DNA of 64,000 nucleotides from a virus. Taxonomy: Duplodnaviria > Caudoviricetes. A program made the translations under genes and the position numbers. The notes below the pieces were generated by a model. The model worked only from the letters and a program-made list of their open reading frames with translations, was not told the DNA's origin and searched no databases. Positions 11,668 to 19,201 of the stretch are shown here, in pieces (the stretch's first letter is position 1; each line of letters starts with the position of its first letter). The stretch covers positions 1 through 64,000 of the IMG/VR virus record IMGVR_UViG_3300014204_000011, one strand, 5' to 3'.

Positions 11668-11966
11668 AAAAGTTAATGTTTATATTTTTATTGTTTTGTT
11701 TCATAGGTTGCAATGAATTTACCGGAGATGGAATTGTTACTGATAAAGGTATTGATTATATTGATATCCGGACGATGATAGACGGATTCGGAATTAAAGA
11801 AACTGTAAAAAGTGATCCTAATAGTATTTCTATGTACTGGATTAAACTTAATACTTGCGAAGATAAAATATATATAAATCAATTTTCATGGGAAGATCTG
11901 GAAATTAAAGATTTTGTTAAAGTTGGGCCGGAGCATTCTGATATAAGATTTCAGAAGGAATATTGA
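11664..11966 (+). CDS. putative lipoprotein
   Basis: [16 protein letters not shown] signal peptide with lipobox-like Cys. Confidence 0.7.
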
Positions 11967-11968
11967 TT

Positions 11969-12574
11969 ATGGATTTATATAAAGAACTCGGCGTTAATAA
12001 AGATGCAAATATTGATGAAATAAAAAAAGCATATAGAAAACAGGCAAAGGCAAATCATCCGGATAAACACGGAGATGAAGAAAAAATGCAATCTATCAAT
12101 AAAGCTTATGCAATATTAAAAAATCCTTTTAAGCGTGAACGATATGATAGATTTGGAGAAGAGGAAACTGTTAATAATGATGATGCAAAATTAACTCAAA
12201 CAATTTGTGATATTGTTGCATCTTTAATTTTGAAAAATCCTGATGATATTAAAGTTTTCTTACAAGGTTTAAAACGTGAATGGAATAGTAATTATAATTC
12301 AGGTATAATAAAAGTTAAACAAGAAAAGCAATCTTTAGAGAATTTTAAAAAGAGAATATTAAAACATCCTGATAATGATATTATAAATAATTTTATTGAT
12401 GGTAAAATAAATAATTTAGAATTACAAATTATAAACATTGAAAAAGATTATGAAATAAGATTAAAGGCTTTGGGTATTCTTTTAGATGATTATGTTTATA
12501 AAATAAAGGCAGAAGATCCGTGGGTTGTAAACGCTCGACAAATGGGTTATACAATCATTGAAGGGTTTGAATAA
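11969..12574 (+). CDS. J-domain (DnaJ-like) protein
   Basis: [31 protein letters not shown]...[18 protein letters not shown] with intact HPD. Confidence 0.92.
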
Positions 12575-12753: not shown

Positions 12754-14127
12754 ATGAAAGTTGATTTTTCTAATTATTATGATATTTTAAACCCTTGTTA
12801 TTATGATTTCTTTGAAGATAATAATCGAATAAGACTTTTATATGGAAGTGCCGGTTCAGGTAAAAGTTTTTATTTAACTCAGGAATATATTTATAAAATT
12901 ATTGTATTAAATAAATTCAATTTGCTGTGTATGAGGAAAGTGGCGAATACTCACCGGACTAGCTGTTTTGCTTTATTTCAACAGGTTATATCTTCGTTAA
13001 ATGTGGAGTCTTTGTTTAAAATAAACAAAACAGATTTAACTATTGAATGTATTCATAATAAAAATATTATTATTTTTAAAGGATTAGATGATGGGGGAGA
13101 AAAAATTAAATCCGTTACCGGAAAGAACGGTATTATTACATCTATATGGATTGAAGAGGCTACAGAGTTAACAAACATTCAGGAATTTAATCAGCTTAAT
13201 GTTAGACTTAGAGGTAAAAGCGAAATACCTTTACAAATCACTCTTTCCTTTAATCCGATTAGTGTAAATCATTGGCTTTATAAAGAGTTCTTTTTAAAGA
13301 AAACTTTTCAAAAAAATTATTCAGTTACTATATTAAAAACTACCTACCTCCAGAATGAACATCTCGATGAGGATTATAAAAATGTACTTGAATCATATAA
13401 AGATATTGATGAACAATTTTATCGAGTGTATTGTCTCGCAGAATTTGGAATTTACGGCAATACTATTTTTAATAATTATAGTTTAGAATCTTGTCCTTAT
13501 ACTGAGGATGAATTTGATTCAATATATAATGGATTAGATTTTGGTTATTCACATCCGCAAGTGCTAGAAAAGCTTGGATTTAAAGATGGTACAATGTATT
13601 CTTATAATGAATTATGTTTATTTGAAAAAACAAATAAAGAATATATTGAGGAAAATAAAGAATATGATATATTGCATGAAAATGAAAATGTTATATGTGA
13701 TAGTGCCGAACCTTCAAAGATTAAAGAACTGGTTCAATATGGTTATGGTGCAATTCCAGCAATTAAGGGTAAGGATAGTGTAAGTAGAGGTATAGATTTT
13801 TTAAAAAGTCAAAAATGGGTAATTGATCCTGATAAATGTCCAAGACTAGCTCAAGAGGTTGAACAATATCATTGGAAAAAAGATAAAGAAGGAAATATAA
13901 CTGAAAAACCTGTAGAACTCTTTGAAGATGCAATCCACGCATGTTTTTATGCTTTAGAGCCATTGAGCCGATCAAAAGGCAAGCCAGGCGTTTTATCCGG
14001 TTCAATTAGTGATCAGAAAAAAGGCTTAATAGAAATAAAGAAAGCAGAAAGAAGAAAGCGTAAAGAAGTTATGATTGCACAACGTAAGAAAAAAAGAGAA
14101 GATGTTGAAAATTTTATTGAAAAGTAA
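12754..14127 (+). CDS. terL: terminase large subunit (PBSX-type)
   Basis: Walker A GSAGSGKS, WIEEATE, LSFNP, GLDFGY, CDSAEP, C-terminal nuclease Asp motif. Confidence 0.95.
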   Translation: MKVDFSNYYDILNPCYYDFFEDNNRIRLLYGSAGSGKSFYLTQEYIYKIIVLNKFNLLCMRKVANTHRTSCFALFQQVISSLNVESLFKINKTDLTIECIHNKNIIIFKGLDDGGEKIKSVTGKNGIITSIWIEEATELTNIQEFNQLNVRLRGKSEIPLQITLSFNPISVNHWLYKEFFLKKTFQKNYSVTILKTTYLQNEHLDEDYKNVLESYKDIDEQFYRVYCLAEFGIYGNTIFNNYSLESCPYTEDEFDSIYNGLDFGYSHPQVLEKLGFKDGTMYSYNELCLFEKTNKEYIEENKEYDILHENENVICDSAEPSKIKELVQYGYGAIPAIKGKDSVSRGIDFLKSQKWVIDPDKCPRLAQEVEQYHWKKDKEGNITEKPVELFEDAIHACFYALEPLSRSKGKPGVLSGSISDQKKGLIEIKKAERRKRKEVMIAQRKKKREDVENFIEK

Positions 14128-14136
14128 AAAAAATTG

Positions 14137-14165
14137 TTGACAGGGTTTTCTATAATTGATAGGTT
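14137..14165 (+). promoter_or_regulatory. putative sigma70 promoter for the RNA locus
   Basis: TTGACA-N17-TAGGTT just after the terL stop. Confidence 0.5.
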
Positions 14166-14202
14166 TTTAATCAGTAAAGTAACCCATTAGAATAATAATG
14201 GT

Positions 14203-14265
14203 TGAGAAGTTCGGTACATAAAAGACTCATTATCTTTTATTATGGTTCGATTCCATTTTTCTCAC
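14203..14265 (+). pseudogene. D-armless tRNA-like element, anticodon CAT
   Basis: acceptor TGAGAAG/TTTCTCA; anticodon arm AAAGA-CTCATTA-TCTTT; T-loop TTCGATT; only 11 nt where the D-arm should be. Confidence 0.6.
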
Positions 14266-14269
14266 ATAA

Positions 14270-14542
14270 AATCCTACCGTAGCCGGATTTGCGGATAAGG
14301 TGTTAAGATGCTGACGTTATCAGCTATAACGACTTAACTTAGTAAATAATGGGAATACCATGAGGTTTTATAAGCTTCACCATTATATAAGTTGCTAAAA
14401 ACCGGTTTTTCAAAAAGAGGTCATAGTCATATGGCTGAGAATACGAGAATGGGGCAACCTTCTATGACCGTATTTAACTTCTTACTGCTAAAACCAGTAA
14501 AGACTGCTTTTTCCCGATTATAGCAGTAAAAGAAAATCGGAA
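14270..14542 (+). ncRNA. densely structured intergenic RNA
   Basis: stems GCTGA/TCAGC, ATAATGG/CCATTAT, GGTCATAG/CTATGACC and TTACTGCTA/TAGCAGTAA, plus a CCGATT/AATCGG pseudoknot. Confidence 0.45.
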
Positions 14543-14543
14543 C

Positions 14544-14616
14544 GGGGCAGTAGCTCTAATGGGAGAGCGTCTGGTTTGCAACCAGAATGTTGTGAGTTCA
14601 AGTCCCACCTGTTCCA
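14544..14616 (+). tRNA. tRNA-Ala (TGC)
   Basis: cloverleaf; acceptor GGGGCAG/CTGTTCC with G3:U70; anticodon arm TCTGG-TTTGCAA-CCAGA; discriminator A; one T-stem mismatch; CCA not fully encoded. Confidence 0.9.
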
Positions 14617-14660
14617 AATTCCAGCGACAGTATGCACTGGAGTAAAAAATAATTAATTTA

Positions 14661-14764
14661 GGTTATATTGAATTGTTTCAAAGATTTCAAAATTGAGCTT
14701 TGGTGGTCGCAAGATAGAAGCAAAGGCTTATAACCCTGACTGGTGACGATCCCAGGGCCACCTA
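14661..14764 (+). ncRNA. pseudoknotted 5' leader of ORF 14804
   Basis: GGTTATA/TATAACC and GGTGGTC/GGCCACC helices cross; inner CTGG/CCAG hairpin. Confidence 0.45.
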
Positions 14765-14803
14765 AAAAATCAAAATTTAAAATTAAAAAGGAGATAAGAG
14801 AAA

Positions 14804-15445
14804 ATGGAAAAAGAAAGAATGACTATTACAAGAGGACTGAGAGAGCTTAAACTTCTTGATGATAGACTTATGAAAACAATTTCAGAGATGAAATTTGTTG
14901 ATGTTTATCAGGGTAAAAATCCTGGAGTAGTTTTAATAAGCAAAAAACAAAAAGCAGTTTTTGAAAGTGACATAAAAGAAAAGATTCAATCTTATGAAGC
15001 TCTCTTAAAAAGAAGAACTGCTATAAAGTCGGCTATTATGAAGTCAAATTCAGAAAATAAAATAAGAATAGCAAGTAAAGAGTATTTTGTAATTGACGCA
15101 ATTGAAAAAAAATCATCATTAAAGTATGATAAAGAATTTCTAAAAAAAATGAGATCAGATTGGGTTCAGATTTCAAACAATATTGAATCTAATCGAGTTA
15201 ATATAGAAAATCAGGTTAATACTATTGTAACTCAGGCTTTTGGAGCAAATAAAACAAATGATAAAGAAACTTATGATAATATCGCAAAGCCTTTTATCGA
15301 GGCTAATGAATTGAAACTTGTTAATCCGGTTGATATTTACAAAAGAATTGAAGAGCTTGATAAAGAAATTGTTGAATTTGAAGCTGAAGTTGATTTTGTT
15401 CTTTCAGAGTCAAATGCAAAAGTTGAAATTGAAATAGAAATTTAA
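14804..15445 (+). CDS. coiled-coil protein, possibly distant DIP1984/DUF6847-like
   Basis: AAGGAG RBS; MTITRGLRELKLLDDRL...IKSAIMKSNS...VDFVLSESNAKVEI; family link is from recalled pattern only. Confidence 0.5.
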   Translation: MEKERMTITRGLRELKLLDDRLMKTISEMKFVDVYQGKNPGVVLISKKQKAVFESDIKEKIQSYEALLKRRTAIKSAIMKSNSENKIRIASKEYFVIDAIEKKSSLKYDKEFLKKMRSDWVQISNNIESNRVNIENQVNTIVTQAFGANKTNDKETYDNIAKPFIEANELKLVNPVDIYKRIEELDKEIVEFEAEVDFVLSESNAKVEIEIEI

Positions 15446-15446
15446 A

Positions 15447-15819
15447 AAATATATGGAGGCTTGTCGAAAATCATAAACTTATGCTCGCCAACTCAAAGGC
15501 GTTAAAATCAGAGATCATAATAGCAATGGCAATATTGCAACTCCCTGTTAAGGAGCTTTAGAACAATGAGTCAACGGTTCAAATCCGTTTATTCCCATAA
15601 TGCGGAATATAGCTCAGTTTGGTTAGAGCAATTGTTTGAAAAAAAAATGAAAAGCTAAAAAATTATGATTTAACTTTTAAAAATCAGGATTAAAACTTTA
15701 AGCCGTTAAAATTAAAAAATATAAAGTTTAAAGATTGATAAAATCCTTGACTAATGGTTAAAAACTGATAGCATAATAGAGAATTGATTTCCACAAGGCT
15801 GATAAGTCTCCATATTTTA
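15447..15819 (+). ncRNA. ~370-nt structured RNA closed by a basal stem
   Basis: ATATGGAGGCTT (15451-62) pairs with AAGTCTCCATAT (15804-15); internal AGGATT/AATCCT and AAACTTTA/TAAAGTTT stems. Confidence 0.6.
15521..15630 (+). pseudogene. tRNA-derived parts: Asn(GTT) anticodon arm, T-arm and acceptor 3' strand, then a tRNA 5' half
   Basis: CTCC-CTGTTAA-GGAG; AACGG-TTCAAAT-CCGTT; TATTCCCA; then GGAATA-TAGCTCAGTTTGGTTAGAGCA. Confidence 0.7.
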
Positions 15820-15836
15820 AAATTTAAGAGGTATGA

Positions 15837-16127
15837 ATGTATAATAAAATTTTCAATCCGATGAGTGAGGCTCTAAGGCTTCTTAGAGTTTATTCAGATA
15901 TAAGCCAGGGTGATATGGCTTTAAATCTTCAGTTTCAAAATAATGTACTTTCTCAAATAGAAAACGGTCGAAGGGAAATAACCGTTAAAACTCTTGAAAA
16001 ATATGCTGAATTTTTTAAAATTCAAGTTAAAGATATAACATTTTTTGCACAACAAATTAAAGAAAATAAAGATATAAAAAAAGAAATATTTTTAACAATT
16101 ATGAAAAATATTAAAGAGGGTGTATGA
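15837..16127 (+). CDS. XRE-family HTH regulator
   Basis: LRLLRVYSDISQGDMALNL....VLSQIENGRREITVKTLEKYAEFF. Confidence 0.85.
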   Translation: MYNKIFNPMSEALRLLRVYSDISQGDMALNLQFQNNVLSQIENGRREITVKTLEKYAEFFKIQVKDITFFAQQIKENKDIKKEIFLTIMKNIKEGV

Positions 16128-16318
16128 GTTTAAGAATTGATTCTGAAAAATGTATTCATTGTGGTATGTGTCATGATAATTGTGAACATCATGGCTTAAC
16201 TCTTGTAAGCACTCATGATACTGTTTTATATATTCAGAACATGAAATGTATTCAATGCAAAGAATGTATAAAAAATTGTCCGGCTAATGCAATTTATGAA
16301 GAGGTAGAAAATGTCTAA
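16124..16318 (+). CDS. 2x[4Fe-4S] ferredoxin
   Basis: CIHCGMCHDNC and CIQCKECIKNCPANAI. Confidence 0.9.
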   Translation: MSLRIDSEKCIHCGMCHDNCEHHGLTLVSTHDTVLYIQNMKCIQCKECIKNCPANAIYEEVENV

Positions 16319-17598
16319 ACGCTATTCACAAATAGGTAAAAATATTATAGAATGGGATCAGACCTATTATATAACTTATGCTGGGGGTAAAAGAGAACTT
16401 CCGGCTAAAGATCAAAAAGAATATGATAAAACTCTTAACTTGCCTTTTGCATTGCAAAGACAGGAATTAAAAAAACTGGGATTTGAAAAGAATCCTAATG
16501 TCGTACCGATTAAAGGATTGTCTTTGATTGAATTATTTAAAGACAGATCTTTTATACCTTTTTTTGATGAGTATTTTAATCAATCACATTTAATTCAAAT
16601 TCATGATCAGATTGTTTATGAGTCTATAAAGCAAAAATCTTATGACTTGTTGTTGAACATTTAATGAAAATAAATATCTCTAAAATTATTCAGCAAATAT
16701 ATAAATCTGAAATACCGGTTCGTATTGAATTTATGTATGACATGGGTTTTTGTTGGAGCTTGATTGATGAGAAAATATTTCCTAGAATATTCTATGATTT
16801 TAAACTTGAAGGTGTTGCTATAGAAAATATATTGACAAAAGATAAAGTTCCTGTATTTGAAAAGGATTGGATTGCTAAAGGAGTTTCACAATCTTTTGAC
16901 GATGCTATAAAAAAACTATGTGAGGCTATTGTAGAACATTTACCTGAAAGTAGTTTTGCTGAATGGTGGAGAGGTATAAATTGAGGCATAAGCATGAAGA
17001 TTTTGAAGAAGATGAAGCTAGTGTTGATAGCCGTGAACGCAATAAACAGTTAAAACAGGATTTTGATGAGCTTTATATTCATAATTGTAAAAGATCTGGT
17101 AAAAAGTTTACATGTGTTCAAAATACTACAATCTTTGTTAGCGGAAATATAACAAGGTTATTGTTACCGCCTAAAACTCATTATGCTGATTGCCTTAAAA
17201 GAATTAGCGAAAATATGTATGTACAACTCAAAACAATAAAGGAGTAACAGAAAATGACATTTGAAAAAGCGATAGAAAAAGTCTTTGATCGGGACGAGAA
17301 AAAATTCGGGACTGTTTTTGCAGAAAGAAATACTCTTTCCGGACTTGATGAACTAAAAATTGCTGCGAAAGTATGGAATATTGTAGCTTTAGCACTGGAA
17401 GAAAAAGGGCTTGACGATTTTATTATTATCAATAATGTAGGTGGTATTGTATCTATTCCCCTGAAAGAGGAGAACATTAAAGATGATTCTAAAGGAAAAA
17501 GCAAAAGTCCGAAGACAGAGACAGCTTCAGATGATGCTGTAAATGGCAAAGAAGAAAAATCAAAAGAATCTCCAGCCACAACAAAGCCAGTTAAGTAA
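16311..17598 (+). CDS. four hypothetical ORFs (16311-16664, 16664-16984, 16963-17247, 17254-17598)
   Basis: ORF track; coupled stops and starts. Confidence 0.65.
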
Positions 17599-19201
17599 AG
17601 ATACATATCTTGATGCTTTTAACGCCGGTCGTGCAGCCGTTAAAGCTGCTGACCGAGCTTTATATAATTCAGTTCCTAAAGGAATACAATATAACTGGCT
17701 TCATAACGTAAACTACAATAATGTAGTTTATCCTATAGATAAAATCCCCGATAGATTATTAAGACTCATAGAAAGAAAAAATCCCGTAGTTGGTGCTATT
17801 ACTACTTTGCGTATTCAGCAGGGTATTGAATATGCACATATCAGCCATGATAAAGATGTGCCTGGTTGGGAAATATGTTTATCAGATGAAAAAGCCACAA
17901 TAAGCCCTGATCAGGAAAAGCAAAAGAAATTTCTTGAAAATATTCTCATGTATGGACATAGAGAAGATTATGCGCCTTATCAGGTTTCGGACATGCCTCC
18001 AACTTTCAGAGAACGTATGACTATGTATATGAGAGACAGACTTTTAATTGATAAAGTTTGTTGGGAAATAGAAAGAAACCGTAAAGGTGAAACTGTTGCG
18101 CTCTGGACTCTTGACGGTGCGACTATATATCCGGTTTTACCTGGTGGATTTTATGGCAGTGTATCTCAAATTAGCACGGGTATGATAGGTGGATTTAATA
18201 AACTTACCGATGAAATAAGAAAAGCAAAGATTGAAAATATACCTCCGGTTGAAGAAATTGCTTTTGTACAGGAGCTTTTATATGGTATGTCTGGTGGAGG
18301 AATTGCTGCTGCTTTTAGGAATACTGATCTTATTTATGATATAAGCTCAGATCTTAATGATATTAGATATTATAAACAAGGTTATTCTGTAGTTGAAAAA
18401 GCTAATATGGCAGTTACGGCTTTTATAAATTCGTTGTCTTATAATAGCAACGGACTTTCAAGAGGTGCAATCCCGAAAGTTGCTATAGCTATGGGAAAAG
18501 AAAGCGGATATACACAACCACAGCTTGAAGACATGCAAGATGAGTGGATGGCTAATTTTGAAGGTGTAGACGGTCAATGGAATATCCCTCTTCTTAATGG
18601 TGATGCTAAAATATTAAATCTCATGCCTAATAATAGAGATATGGAATATCAGAAATATATGGAATTTTGCGGTGCATTGATTTGTTCAATCATGGGTGCA
18701 GATCCGGCAGAAGCTGGGCTTAGATTTAACCAGGCTCAAAATGTATTATCAGAAAACCAAGATGCAAAACAAGTATTTTCTAAGAACAGAGGACTTAATC
18801 AGCTCTTAGGAGATTTTGCATATATTGTTAATCGTTGGCTAAGAGAAAGCGGATATAAGTTTGGAAGAGAATTTGTATTTAAGTTTAATGGACTTGTTAA
18901 TTCTGATAAAGGATTTGAAGCAGATCTGTTAAAGAAAAAAGCTGAAACTTATATGGAAGTTAACGAAATAAGAAAAGAACTTGGTTTAAAACCTCTTAAA
19001 GACGGAGATATAATTCTTAATAGTATATATTTACAGGCTAAACAGGCTAATGCAATGTCAGAGCAAGGTGGGGGAGAAGATGGAGCTGAAGGTGAAAGTG
19101 ACGAAACAGGTTTTGGTGGATTTAGCGAAGATGATATTGACGGAGCTGTTGACGAAGCCGTATCAGGTATGGAAAAAGCAAAAAGCATAAGATTAATATA
19201 A
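17543..19201 (+). CDS. portal protein
   Basis: 552 aa after terL; RDRLLIDKVCWEIERNRKG, SRGAIPK, WNIPLL, RDMEY and EIRKELGLKPL motifs; acidic tail ending in MEKA. Confidence 0.88.
   Translation: MAKKKNQKNLQPQQSQLSKDTYLDAFNAGRAAVKAADRALYNSVPKGIQYNWLHNVNYNNVVYPIDKIPDRLLRLIERKNPVVGAITTLRIQQGIEYAHISHDKDVPGWEICLSDEKATISPDQEKQKKFLENILMYGHREDYAPYQVSDMPPTFRERMTMYMRDRLLIDKVCWEIERNRKGETVALWTLDGATIYPVLPGGFYGSVSQISTGMIGGFNKLTDEIRKAKIENIPPVEEIAFVQELLYGMSGGGIAAAFRNTDLIYDISSDLNDIRYYKQGYSVVEKANMAVTAFINSLSYNSNGLSRGAIPKVAIAMGKESGYTQPQLEDMQDEWMANFEGVDGQWNIPLLNGDAKILNLMPNNRDMEYQKYMEFCGALICSIMGADPAEAGLRFNQAQNVLSENQDAKQVFSKNRGLNQLLGDFAYIVNRWLRESGYKFGREFVFKFNGLVNSDKGFEADLLKKKAETYMEVNEIRKELGLKPLKDGDIILNSIYLQAKQANAMSEQGGGEDGAEGESDETGFGGFSEDDIDGAVDEAVSGMEKAKSIRLI

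What the first reader, a model, noticed from the sequence alone, without database searches (positions are those of the whole stretch)
14804..15819. Coiled-coil gene followed by a ~370-nt closed structured RNA: candidate RNP system
Immediately after the 14804 stop, 15451-15462 pairs with 15804-15815 (12 bp including one G-U). CTTGT/ACAAG is an alternative or extending pairing. The enclosed region holds a long A-rich hairpin (AGGATT/AATCCT, AAACTTTA/TAAAGTTT) and tRNA parts. The gene's 5' leader is also pseudoknotted. No known RNA family was recognised. A protein gene bracketed by structured RNA suggests a cognate RNA-protein complex or RNA-level control (inference).
Basis: partly seen in the sequence, partly recalled or inferred. 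Interest (0 to 1): 0.78.

Follow-up and report, generated by a model that had tools for sequence, protein, structure and literature searches.

The report
Phage RNA gene with partner protein
The stretch after the 213-aa gene is a real, intricately folded RNA gene that always follows this same uncharacterised protein gene in phage T5, many other large phages and bacterial tRNA arrays. Here it carries a rearranged tRNA-like insert, and its function is unknown.

Summary
Window 15451-15815 (+) is a closed structured RNA. Its closing helix is kept by compensatory changes in 29 aligned relatives: 98.9% of cells are paired and all 12 pairs covary.

The RNA belongs to a widespread family of 266-484 nt that lies directly 3' of phrog_1491 genes (T5 ORF080). 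It followed the gene in 57 of 59 distinct viral loci and 78 of 80 bacterial loci.

Architecture:
- closing helix P1;
- a GAAAAY junction;
- a 5' hairpin or pseudoknot;
- a variable insert;
- an array of 7-nt AAAGNUN repeats;
- a conserved core, GAUAAAAUCC...GGCUG.

In the window the insert is a circularly permuted tRNA-like body (weak YrlA match). In 35 of 104 relatives a tRNA or tRNA-like unit sits in that region.

Gene plus RNA form a 1.05-kb cassette. It is absent from the closest relative and from a co-occurring natural variant.

Rfam's 86-nt RAGATH-27 model is the 5' domain of one subfamily, so the family is partly catalogued. I found no description of the full RNA or of its protein linkage. 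This scan had already found the family on T5-like phages.

RNA-protein binding and function remain untested. The protein is modelled as a homodimer of no known fold.

The parts
14764..15812 (+). Gene-plus-RNA cassette: an insertion relative to the nearest relative and to a natural variant
   Evidence: L001 (TerL 67% identical, HTH protein 83% identical) goes from the leader element straight to the HTH gene. A DNA contig of run X3 joins 14740 to 15819 with 24 other letters between. Another X3 contig carries the cassette with 3 differences.
14804..15445 (+). 213-aa helical protein gene, family phrog_1491 (T5 ORF080 family)
   Evidence: phrog_1491 E 6e-55 over its full length; no Pfam family. 728 phage records hold a homologue. 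AF2 model pLDDT 84, pTM 0.78. No informative fold match. Homodimer model ipSAE 0.62 against best control 0.00.
15451..15815 (+). Whole structured RNA, from the outermost base pair of P1 to its partner
   Evidence: A profile seeded on T5 that never saw the window hits only 15648-15801 (+) in the 64 kb, E 1.8e-12.
15454..15465 (+). P1 5' strand (the family-wide 12 bp)
   Evidence: Pairs with 15801-15812; all 12 pairs covary in A2.
15466..15479 (+). Conserved 5' junction GAAAAUCAUAAAC (family consensus GAAAACUnUAAAC)
   Evidence: Alignment A2. The same motif is in the RAGATH-27 consensus.
15487..15502 (+). 5'-domain hairpin CGCC/GGCG, at the position of the family's H-type pseudoknot
   Evidence: The pseudoknot is clear in L017, L022 and L032. 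In the window only a weak 3-4 bp second stem is possible.
15541..15555 (+). Anticodon-arm-like hairpin CUCC-CUGUUAA-GGAG
   Evidence: part of the rival 29.5-bit D-armless tRNA match at 15528-15597.
15557..15641 (+). Circularly permuted tRNA-like body. A stem (15557-15567 with 15631-15641) carries variable loop, T-arm, acceptor hairpin closed by an 8-nt loop, U8-A9 and D-arm
   Evidence: Read directly. The residues for canonical tertiary contacts are present (U8, A14, G15, C48, G18-G19, UUCAAAU T-loop). Rfam YrlA 30.6 bits, E 4e-4 at 15554-15659.
15651..15736 (+). Array of about 12 heptads (AAAGNUN)
   Evidence: Autocorrelation 0.45 at lag 7, 0.41 at lag 14 and 0.37 at lag 21, against 0.30 in shuffles, over 54 RNAs. 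Alignment.
15737..15801 (+). Conserved 3' core. GAUAAAAUCC; P3a 15745-15749 with 15794-15798; P3b 15755-15757 with 15791-15793; inner hairpin; GGCUG 15797-15801
   Evidence: P3a, P3b and P4 all have double changes. P4 is weak in the window itself.
15802..15815 (+). P1 3' strand (with G15801)

Best explanation
**What it is.** Window 15451-15815 is the gene of a roughly 365-nt structured non-coding RNA. It forms a two-part mobile cassette (14764-15812) with the 213-aa gene just upstream.

**Family.** The RNA is a divergent member of a widespread family encoded directly 3' of phrog_1491 genes (T5 ORF080), on the same strand. The family occurs in many large tRNA-bearing phages, in cyanobacterial tRNA arrays and at chromosomal sites in Bacillaceae.

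**Likely working (inferred).**
- Gene and RNA are co-transcribed; only 5 nt separate the stop codon from P1.
- The RNA is cut out of the transcript, plausibly with help from the enzymes that process the flanking or embedded tRNAs.
- It then works together with the dimeric helical protein as a ribonucleoprotein. The array of 7-nt AAAGNUN repeats is a candidate multivalent binding platform.
- The embedded tRNA or tRNA-like domain links the particle to tRNA-handling machinery.

**Status of each step.**
- Shown: the RNA structure, its conservation, the gene linkage and the cassette behaviour.
- Model only: the protein homodimer.
- Inferred: co-transcription, processing, protein-RNA binding and any tRNA-related or conflict-related role.
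For: - **Structure and covariation:**
- **Strand specificity:** P1 holds many G-U pairs (for example pair 6-704 GU:15, pair 7-703 UG:8, pair 12-698 UG:5). These would be A-C mismatches on the other strand, so the fold belongs to the sense-strand RNA.
- **Family membership of the window copy:**
- **Linkage, gene to RNA:** 57 of 59 distinct viral loci and 78 of 80 bacterial loci. The two bacterial loci without a hit are short contigs of 1020 and 1355 bases with little sequence past the gene.
- **Linkage, RNA to gene:** 47 of 57 pattern matches with enough upstream DNA have the gene. Of the other ten, eight are chance matches in coding sequence and two are one disrupted locus.
- **Phage T5:** it has the RNA after ORF080.
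- **Cassette present or absent:**
- **tRNA association:** 35 of 104 delimited RNAs hold a tRNA or tRNA-like unit inside, and 62 of 104 have a tRNA within 300 nt downstream. Cyanobacterial copies lie inside tRNA arrays with a tRNA embedded.
- **Heptad periodicity:**
- **Dimer model:** ipSAE 0.62 against best control 0.00. The mark was reached by 20 of 30 proteins solved as pairs of one chain and 1 of 23 solved as single chains. The runs agree in at least 97% of contacts and the partner pLDDT is at least 87.
Against: - The protein has no recognisable RNA-binding fold or motif.
- Tight linkage could come from shared transcription alone, as proposed for GOLLD and ROOL with tRNAs (PMC5737381).
- The window has no terminator or clear promoter around the RNA. 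A discrete species therefore needs processing that is not shown.
- The window's own P4 helix and 5' pseudoknot are weak.
- An earlier bold reading of this family in this scan was later rated 1 in 100.
Confidence: 0.6

Rival explanations
1. RNA-only ornate RNA, like GOLLD or ROOL. The RNA acts without the protein, perhaps as a self-assembling scaffold or catalyst. It follows the phrog_1491 gene only because the two share a transcript.
For: - It is large and multi-domain, phage- and tRNA-associated, and sometimes holds tRNAs, as described for GOLLD and ROOL (PMC5737381).
- No RNA-binding signature was found in the protein.
Against: - The order gene-then-RNA, on the same strand and 5-55 nt apart, is kept across protein identities of about 27-40%.
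- It holds across Proteobacteria phages, Bacillota, cyanobacteria and gut phages.
- The two are gained and lost as one unit.
- No intact RNA was found without the gene.
Confidence: 0.2
2. Cis-acting 3' UTR. The structure controls stability or translation of the upstream mRNA, or feeds back on the gene, and has no function in trans.
For: - It starts 5 nt after the stop codon.
- No clear promoter of its own was found.
Against: - A 266-484-nt RNA with a pseudoknot, repeats, a conserved core and embedded tRNA-like domains is far more than known 3' stabilisers need.
- A closing helix that joins the two ends defines a self-contained molecule.
- Flanking tRNAs imply that it is excised.
Confidence: 0.1
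3. Toxin-antitoxin-like or conflict cassette. The protein is an effector, and the repeat-bearing RNA neutralises or senses it, loosely like type III ToxIN. This would explain the patchy, mobile distribution.
For: - It is a stand-alone two-part cassette, present or absent among near-identical phages.
- In Lysinibacillus and Bacillus it is scattered between housekeeping genes.
- Neighbours include Tad2-like and gp5.9-like anti-defence genes in phages.
- In bacteria, neighbours include NADAR, PARG and Macro ADP-ribose hydrolases and a TOTE primase.
Against: - The repeats are 7 nt and lie downstream of the gene, unlike type III antitoxins (own knowledge of ToxIN).
- No nuclease or toxin fold was found.
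- No PADLOC search was run.
- The neighbour counts are small and not phylogenetically independent.
Confidence: 0.08
4. The tRNA parts are a permuted or D-armless tRNA gene that yields a decoding tRNA (Asn-GUU or Phe-GAA). The rest is spacer.
For: - Rfam tRNA 29.5 bits (threshold 29) at 15528-15597, with a CUGUUAA loop.
Against: - ARAGORN calls nothing here.
- The D-armless reading needs a C-C mismatch and ignores the canonical D-arm 14 nt downstream, which together with the shared T-arm completes a tRNA body.
- In the permuted reading the acceptor end is closed by a loop with no CCA, and the anticodon stem runs on into the host RNA.
- The flanks are conserved RNA-family domains, not spacer.
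Confidence: 0.02
5. DNA-level element (origin, packaging or recombination site). The phased A-rich repeats would act as bent DNA or protein-binding sites.
For: - A-rich repeats.
- The cassette ends lie in similar TTTAAAATT...AGGAG stretches.
Against: - There is long-range compensatory pairing over 300-450 nt, with abundant G-U pairs on one strand only.
- The period is 7, not about 10.5.
- The element keeps a fixed orientation relative to the gene.
Confidence: 0.02

Closest known systems
RAGATH-27 RNA motif (Rfam RF03100, 86 nt; function unknown)
   Same: It is the 5' domain of this same RNA family: the P1 5' strand, CGAAAACUUUAAAC and a pseudoknotted hairpin. Four relatives score above its threshold of 76.1 bits (L081 93.4, L080 90.3, L075 88, L047 79.7). 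Six more score below it. All of these RNAs share the 3' domain with the window's RNA.
   Different: - The model covers only about a quarter of the RNA and treats the P1 strand as unpaired.
- It finds nothing in the window (E up to 10).
- It finds nothing at E up to 1 in T5, the cyanobacterial or Bacillaceae copies, or several other phage copies.
- The closing helix, heptad array, 3' core and protein linkage are not part of it.
GOLLD (RF01998) and ROOL (RF03087) large ornate RNAs
   Same: They are large multi-domain RNAs of phages and prophages, often beside tRNAs and also found outside prophages, with unknown function (PMC5737381). This family likewise sits in tRNA clusters and can enclose a tRNA.
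   Different: - There is no Rfam match to either.
- This RNA is smaller (266-484 nt).
- It has an obligate upstream protein gene and a 7-nt repeat array.
- GOLLD and ROOL are reported to form RNA-only assemblies (10.1101/2024.12.08.627333).
YrlA / bacterial Y RNA (RF02553)
   Same: The window's insert has the same layout as the YrlA tRNA-like domain. A long stem carries T-arm, closed acceptor-like hairpin and D-arm, in that permuted order (PMC4201824).
   Different: - The score of 30.6 bits is far below the threshold of 69.
- The 85.7-kb phage has no Ro/Rsr (TROVE) gene.
- Here the module is an insert in a larger RNA.
- In 35 relatives that region holds a tRNA or tRNA-like unit in the ordinary order.
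Type III toxin-antitoxin systems (ToxIN)
   Same: Both are a protein gene tightly coupled to a repeat-containing structured RNA, they are mobile, and they occur in phages and bacteria (own knowledge).
   Different: The RNA here lies downstream, not upstream. Its repeats are 7 nt inside a much larger fold. The protein has no endoribonuclease fold match.
Circularly permuted tRNA genes (Cyanidioschyzon) and two-piece tmRNA genes
   Same: The 3' acceptor strand and T-arm come before the 5' acceptor strand and D-arm.
   Different: No anticodon loop is restored, no CCA or processing signals are evident, and ARAGORN finds no tRNA or tmRNA here. The module is embedded in another RNA.

Membership tests
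phrog_1491-linked RNA family (unnamed; T5 ORF080 3' RNA) | Closing helix P1 joining the base just 5' of Y-GAAAAY with the bases just 3' of GGCUG | tested here: met
   15454-15465 with 15801-15812.
phrog_1491-linked RNA family (unnamed; T5 ORF080 3' RNA) | 3' domain: heptad array, then GAUAAAAUCC ... GGCUG core with helices P3a and P3b | tested here: met
   T5-seeded profile E 1.8e-12 at 15648-15801. Profile built without the window E 6.6e-31. Heptads; helices.
phrog_1491-linked RNA family (unnamed; T5 ORF080 3' RNA) | phrog_1491 gene directly upstream on the same strand | tested here: met
   Gene 14804-15445, phrog_1491 E 6e-55; the RNA starts 5 nt after the stop codon.
phrog_1491-linked RNA family (unnamed; T5 ORF080 3' RNA) | H-type pseudoknot in the 5' domain | tested here: inconclusive
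   Clear in L017, L022 and L032 (11-13 bp) and enriched over shuffles (mean 9.0 against 6.9). The window shows only the first hairpin and a 3-4 bp possible second stem.
RAGATH-27 (RF03100) | Covariance-model score at or above the gathering threshold of 76.1 bits | tested here: not met
   No match in window 13900-16100 at E up to 10, nor at gathering threshold in the whole window. Met by relatives L081, L080, L075 and L047.
RAGATH-27 (RF03100) | Conserved CGAAAACUUUAAAC stretch | tested here: met
   The window reads CGAAAAUCAUAAAC at 15465-15479; 11 of 14 positions agree.
YrlA / Y RNA (RF02553) | Score at or above the gathering threshold of 69 bits | tested here: not met
   30.6 bits, E 4e-4.
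YrlA / Y RNA (RF02553) | tRNA-like domain: T-arm, closed acceptor-like stem and D-arm on a long stem | tested here: met
   15557-15641.
YrlA / Y RNA (RF02553) | Ro60/Rsr (TROVE) partner encoded nearby | tested here: not met
   No TROVE match in the complete 85.7-kb phage record. The host genome is unknown.
GOLLD / ROOL | Match to the Rfam covariance model | tested here: not met
   No match at E up to 10 in the window region or E up to 1 in 29 related loci.
Decoding tRNA (standard, D-armless or permuted) | Complete cloverleaf with free acceptor end and closed anticodon loop | tested here: not met
   ARAGORN finds only tRNA-Ala at 14544-14616. The 29.5-bit Rfam match lacks a D-arm and has a C-C mismatch. 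In the permuted reading the acceptor end is looped shut.
tmRNA (one-piece or permuted two-piece) | tRNA-like domain plus tag reading frame, as detected by ARAGORN | tested here: not met
   No tmRNA called in the window.
Type III toxin-antitoxin | Antitoxin RNA repeats upstream of an endoribonuclease toxin gene | tested here: not met
   The repeats are 7 nt and downstream of the gene. No nuclease fold match.
phrog_1491 protein family | Full-length profile match | tested here: met
   E 6.2e-55, residues 3-212 on profile positions 2-210 of 211.

The most novel reading that the evidence does not exclude
The cassette makes a ribonucleoprotein that takes part in tRNA-centred conflict. A dimeric helical protein sits on the heptad array, and the particle displays a tRNA or tRNA-like 'handle'. 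That handle would engage, decoy or recruit enzymes that cut, modify or ADP-ribosylate tRNA during infection.

This reading would explain three observations:
- the module travels with phage tRNA clusters and bacterial tRNA arrays;
- a tRNA-shaped domain has been acquired in different ways, as an ordinary cloverleaf in many relatives and as a circular permutation here;
- in cyanobacteria two unrelated ADP-ribose hydrolase families (NADAR, PARG) directly follow the RNA.
Probability: 0.07. Interest if true: 0.85.

Novelty: new variant of a known kind. Interest (0 to 1): 0.62.

Why it matters
- **A model phage and many others carry it.** Phage T5, hundreds of other large phages and the tRNA arrays of cyanobacteria hold a conserved RNA-plus-protein module. 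Its full extent appears undescribed; Rfam holds only an 86-nt fragment, RAGATH-27.
- **It gives RAGATH-27 a context.** That motif now has a full-length structure, a partner gene and a tractable system in which to find a function (T5 and E. coli).
- **The window copy adds a natural experiment.** A tRNA body has been circularly permuted and grafted, through its anticodon stem, into the region where relatives carry an ordinary tRNA-like domain. This suggests that the tRNA shape, rather than decoding, is what is selected.
- **Presence/absence variants exist in one sample.** They offer natural controls.

Tried and rejected
- **Expression.** The look-up of sequencing runs listed no RNA holder. The two runs labelled RNA-Seq (X7, X8) are probably DNA and are kept as contigs, so they say nothing about expression or RNA ends.
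- **Protein function.** Nothing informative came from:
  - Pfam and NCBIfam;
  - the PDB sequence profile, best E 0.019;
  - Foldseek against PDB;
  - VIA-align wide, best Z 9.2, generic helical bundles below the level trusted for helical proteins;
  - BFVD, which gave only uncharacterised phage proteins.
- **Close relatives by the single protein.** None were found in viral contigs. TerL relatives L002-L009 are too distant to compare.
- **DNA similarity to phage records.** The only hit was a tRNA fragment.
- **Literature.** Six searches found no description of the full RNA, of T5 ORF080 or of RAGATH-27 in the held library. Papers on phage K and ICP1 large RNAs, the 10,006-motif virus catalogue and a genome-language-model screen do not describe it. 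The catalogue's supplements were not read.
- **RNA without the gene.** Ten pattern matches lacked the gene. Seven are one coding-sequence coincidence and one is another coincidence. Two identical loci (L097, L168) have a 467-aa ORF in place of most of the gene and the 5' half of the RNA.
- **5' pseudoknot in the window.** Not confirmed.
- **Leader pseudoknot.** Not confirmed; the fold is not more stable than shuffles.
- **Promoter.** My first reading of a TTGACA/TATAAT promoter at 14137-14156 was wrong. The spacer is only 8 nt and the scan does not list it.
- **Covariance model.** None of the full RNA was built, because the alignment exceeds the 400-column limit.
Full report
**Setting.** The window is the first 64 kb of a complete 85.7-kb uncultivated phage record with terminal repeats. 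It is about 30% G+C. The finding lies between the large terminase gene (12754-14127) and the portal gene (17543-19201). This non-structural insert region also holds:
- tRNA-Ala at 14544-14616;
- a D-armless tRNA-like sequence at 14204-14264 (22.1 bits);
- other conserved non-coding stretches.

**Check of the observation.** The gene is 14804-15445 (213 aa). Five bases after its stop codon, 15451-15464 pairs with 15802-15815 (14 bp, two G-U), and C15465 pairs with G15801. The 380-nt stretch folds better than every one of 100 shuffles (z = -4.3). The tRNA parts are real (see the section on the variable insert).

**Relatives.**
- The protein belongs to phrog_1491 (E 6e-55). The family is labelled 'tail fiber protein' without evident basis.
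- Homologues occur in 728 phage records: T5-like Salmonella and Escherichia phages, Vibrio, Pseudomonas, Bacillus (Bastille-like), Klebsiella, Erwinia jumbo phages, Lactococcus and Clostridium. T5 ORF080 is one of them.
- In annotated genomes the gene is followed by an unannotated gap of 300-450 nt and often sits in the tRNA cluster.
- I fetched 80 viral loci with a protein alignment. Nearly all have an ORF-free gap downstream.
- Iterated nhmmer from the window's RNA found a conserved element of about 170 nt in 57 of 59 distinct downstream regions.
- To avoid circularity I built a profile seeded on the T5 RNA from sequences that excluded the window. In the whole 64 kb it hits only 15648-15801 on the + strand (E 1.8e-12).

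**Architecture.** From 5' to 3':
1. **P1.** A 9-19-bp helix. Its 5' strand ends one base before GAAAAC, and its 3' strand starts right after GGCUG.
2. **Junction.** GAAAACUnUAAAC.
3. **5' domain.** A hairpin that forms an H-type pseudoknot in several lineages. For example, the second stem is CAUAGUU/AACUAUG in L017 and GAUAGUU/AACUAUC in L022.
4. **Variable insert.**
5. **Repeat array.** Heptads of AAAGNUN. Base-identity autocorrelation is 0.45, 0.41 and 0.37 at lags 7, 14 and 21, against 0.30 in shuffles.
6. **Core.** GAUAAAAUCC, helices P3a and P3b with a 5-nt bulge, an inner hairpin P4 with a conserved 13-nt loop, then GGCUG.

**Covariation on alignment A2 (29 full RNAs).**

| Measure | Observed | Control |
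|---|---|---|
| Cells paired, whole structure | 91.2% | 60.9% shuffled; 35-51% with partners slid |
| Cells with changes on both sides | 223 | 73 shuffled |
| Covariation score | 0.82 | 0.23 shuffled |
| P1 cells paired | 98.9%; all 12 pairs covary | - |

P1 has frequent G-U pairs, which shows that the fold belongs to the sense-strand RNA and not to DNA. Across 104 distinct RNAs delimited by P1, length runs from 266 to 484 nt, median 372.

**Linkage with the gene.**
- *RNA to gene.* I searched viral contigs with an RNA-core pattern only. Of 57 matches with enough upstream DNA, 47 had the phrog_1491 gene directly upstream. Eight of the other ten are chance matches in coding sequence. The remaining two are one disrupted locus, where a 467-aa ORF replaces most of the gene and the 5' half of the RNA.
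- *Gene to RNA in bacteria.* In bacterial genomes 78 of 80 gene loci have the RNA downstream on the same strand. The other two are short contigs (1020 and 1355 bases) with little sequence past the gene.
- No intact RNA was seen without the gene.

**Cassette.** The nearest relative, L001, has TerL 67% identical and the HTH protein 83% identical. It keeps the upstream non-coding elements, including the 'leader' (window 14697-14763), but runs from the leader straight into the HTH gene. A wastewater DNA run holds both forms:
- a contig with the cassette (14793-16200, three differences);
- a contig joining 14740 to 15819.

So 14764-15812, the gene plus the RNA, is gained or lost as one unit. The leader is backbone, not part of a 'bracket' around the gene.

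**The variable insert in this window.** Region 15557-15641 is a tRNA body in circularly permuted order. A stem (15557-15567 with 15631-15641) carries, in this order:
- a 5-nt variable loop;
- a T-arm (AACGG-UUCAAAU-CCGUU);
- a 6-bp acceptor stem closed by an 8-nt loop;
- U8-A9;
- a textbook D-arm (GCUC-AGUUUGGUUA-GAGC).

The residues for the usual tertiary contacts are present (read). Rfam aligns the region to YrlA, whose tRNA-like domain has this layout. The score is only 30.6 bits against a threshold of 69 (E 4e-4), and the phage has no Ro/Rsr gene. A rival 29.5-bit D-armless tRNA reading at 15528-15597 shares the T-arm. It ignores the adjacent D-arm and needs a mismatch.

Relatives use the same region for tRNA-shaped inserts:
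- 35 of 104 RNAs contain an ARAGORN-detected tRNA or tRNA-like unit in ordinary order, about 165 nt from the 5' end. Their anticodons are odd or malformed (AUA, AUG, GCC or a two-base loop).
- L072 and the cyanobacterial copies enclose a regular tRNA.
- 62 of 104 RNAs have a tRNA within 300 nt downstream.

**Relation to catalogued families.** Rfam finds nothing in the window beyond tRNA and the weak YrlA match. Wider scans of relatives gave a correction to the claim of 'no known family'. RAGATH-27 (RF03100, 86 nt) matches the first 85 nt or so of the RNA in the gut/rumen subfamily:
- above threshold: L081 93.4, L080 90.3, L075 88 and L047 79.7 bits;
- below threshold: six more loci.

Its consensus contains the P1 5' strand (unpaired in the model), CGAAAACUUUAAAC and the pseudoknotted hairpin. 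RAGATH-27 is therefore a fragment model of one branch of this family. It does not reach T5, the window, or the cyanobacterial and Bacillaceae copies. No Rfam family covers the heptads or the 3' core. GOLLD and ROOL do not match. I found no paper describing the full RNA or its gene linkage.

**Earlier notes of this scan.** The scan had already reported this RNA on T5-like phages several times. A later check there recorded that 'part of it fell'. The RAGATH-27 overlap may be that part, since those notes say the RNA matches no catalogued family.

**The protein.**
- The AF2 model is confident (pLDDT 84, pTM 0.78). It shows long helices punctuated by small beta-hairpins.
- There is no informative structural or sequence match.
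- A two-copy model passes the tool's mark, with ipSAE 0.62 against a best control of 0.00. That mark was reached by 20 of 30 proteins solved as pairs of one chain and 1 of 23 solved as single chains. The runs agree in at least 97% of contacts, and the partner pLDDT is at least 87. In the model, strand 170-173 pairs with strand 32-35 of the other copy.
- This supports a homodimer in a model only.

**Genomic neighbourhoods.**
- *Phages.* Neighbours are accessory genes: PhoH/PIN, Bro-N, HU, Tad2-like and a gp5.9-like RecBCD inhibitor.
- *Lysinibacillus and Bacillus.* The pair sits alone between transporters, regulators and chemotaxis genes.
- *Filamentous cyanobacteria.* It lies inside tRNA arrays. 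On the same strand it is directly followed by a NADAR gene (L268, L280, L284; further downstream in L283) or a microbial PARG gene (L229, L237). This is a lead towards ADP-ribose chemistry, but the counts are small and come from related genomes.

**Interpretation.**
- *Shown:* a conserved structured RNA, its architecture, its strict pairing with one protein gene, and cassette mobility.
- *Inferred:* co-transcription, excision from a polycistronic transcript, and joint action with the protein. No terminator or clear promoter lies around the RNA.
- The most economical reading is a ribonucleoprotein module tied to tRNA biology. Its function is unknown.
- Rivals, ranked in the Rival explanations section: an RNA-only ornate RNA, a cis-acting 3' UTR, a toxin-antitoxin-like pair, a decoding tRNA, or a DNA element.

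Noticed in passing
window 14267-14541: A conserved non-coding stretch lies between the tRNA-like sequence and tRNA-Ala, and L001 shares it (72 nt at 78% identity, and a 38-nt block 14504-14541 at 100%). One hairpin shows three compensatory pair changes (CGUUAU/AUAACG in the window, CGAGUU/AACUCG in L001). It may be another structured RNA. There is no Rfam match.
   Followed up: partly
window 14204-14264: A D-armless tRNA-like sequence with a CAU anticodon loop. It scores 22.1 bits on the Rfam tRNA model (below threshold) and ARAGORN does not call it.
   Followed up: partly
window 14697-14763; L001 1262-1325: The 'leader' element has a closing stem that covaries (GGUGGUC/GGCCACC in the window, GGUGAGC/GCUCACC in L001) and a conserved AGC-AAAG-GCU hairpin. 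Variants that lack the cassette keep it, and there it precedes the HTH gene. It is not more stable than shuffles.
   Followed up: partly
L097 and L168 (identical), about 767-2330: A 467-aa ORF with repeated zinc-ribbon-like CxxC motifs replaces most of the phrog_1491 gene and the 5' half of the RNA. Only the first few codons, the heptads and the 3' core remain.
   Followed up: partly
L229, L237 (PARG); L268, L280, L283, L284 (NADAR): In filamentous cyanobacteria the gene-RNA pair lies in tRNA arrays. An ADP-ribose hydrolase gene follows it on the same strand, from two unrelated families in different genera.
   Followed up: partly
L208 2519-2647; L073 2508-2659; L047 1164-1336 (minus strand): Other catalogued orphan RNA motifs lie next to the module. 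They are skipping-rope (54.1 bits, above threshold), RAGATH-36 (61.1 bits, below threshold) and FuFi-1 (75.3 bits, above threshold).
   Followed up: no
window 14770-14792 and 15815-15832: Both cassette borders lie in similar TTTAAAATT...A(A)GGAG ribosome-binding leaders. This may be the homology used for gain or loss of the cassette.
   Followed up: no
window 11963-12574 and 16124-16318: The phage encodes a DnaJ-domain protein and a small 2x[4Fe-4S] ferredoxin near the packaging genes.
   Followed up: no
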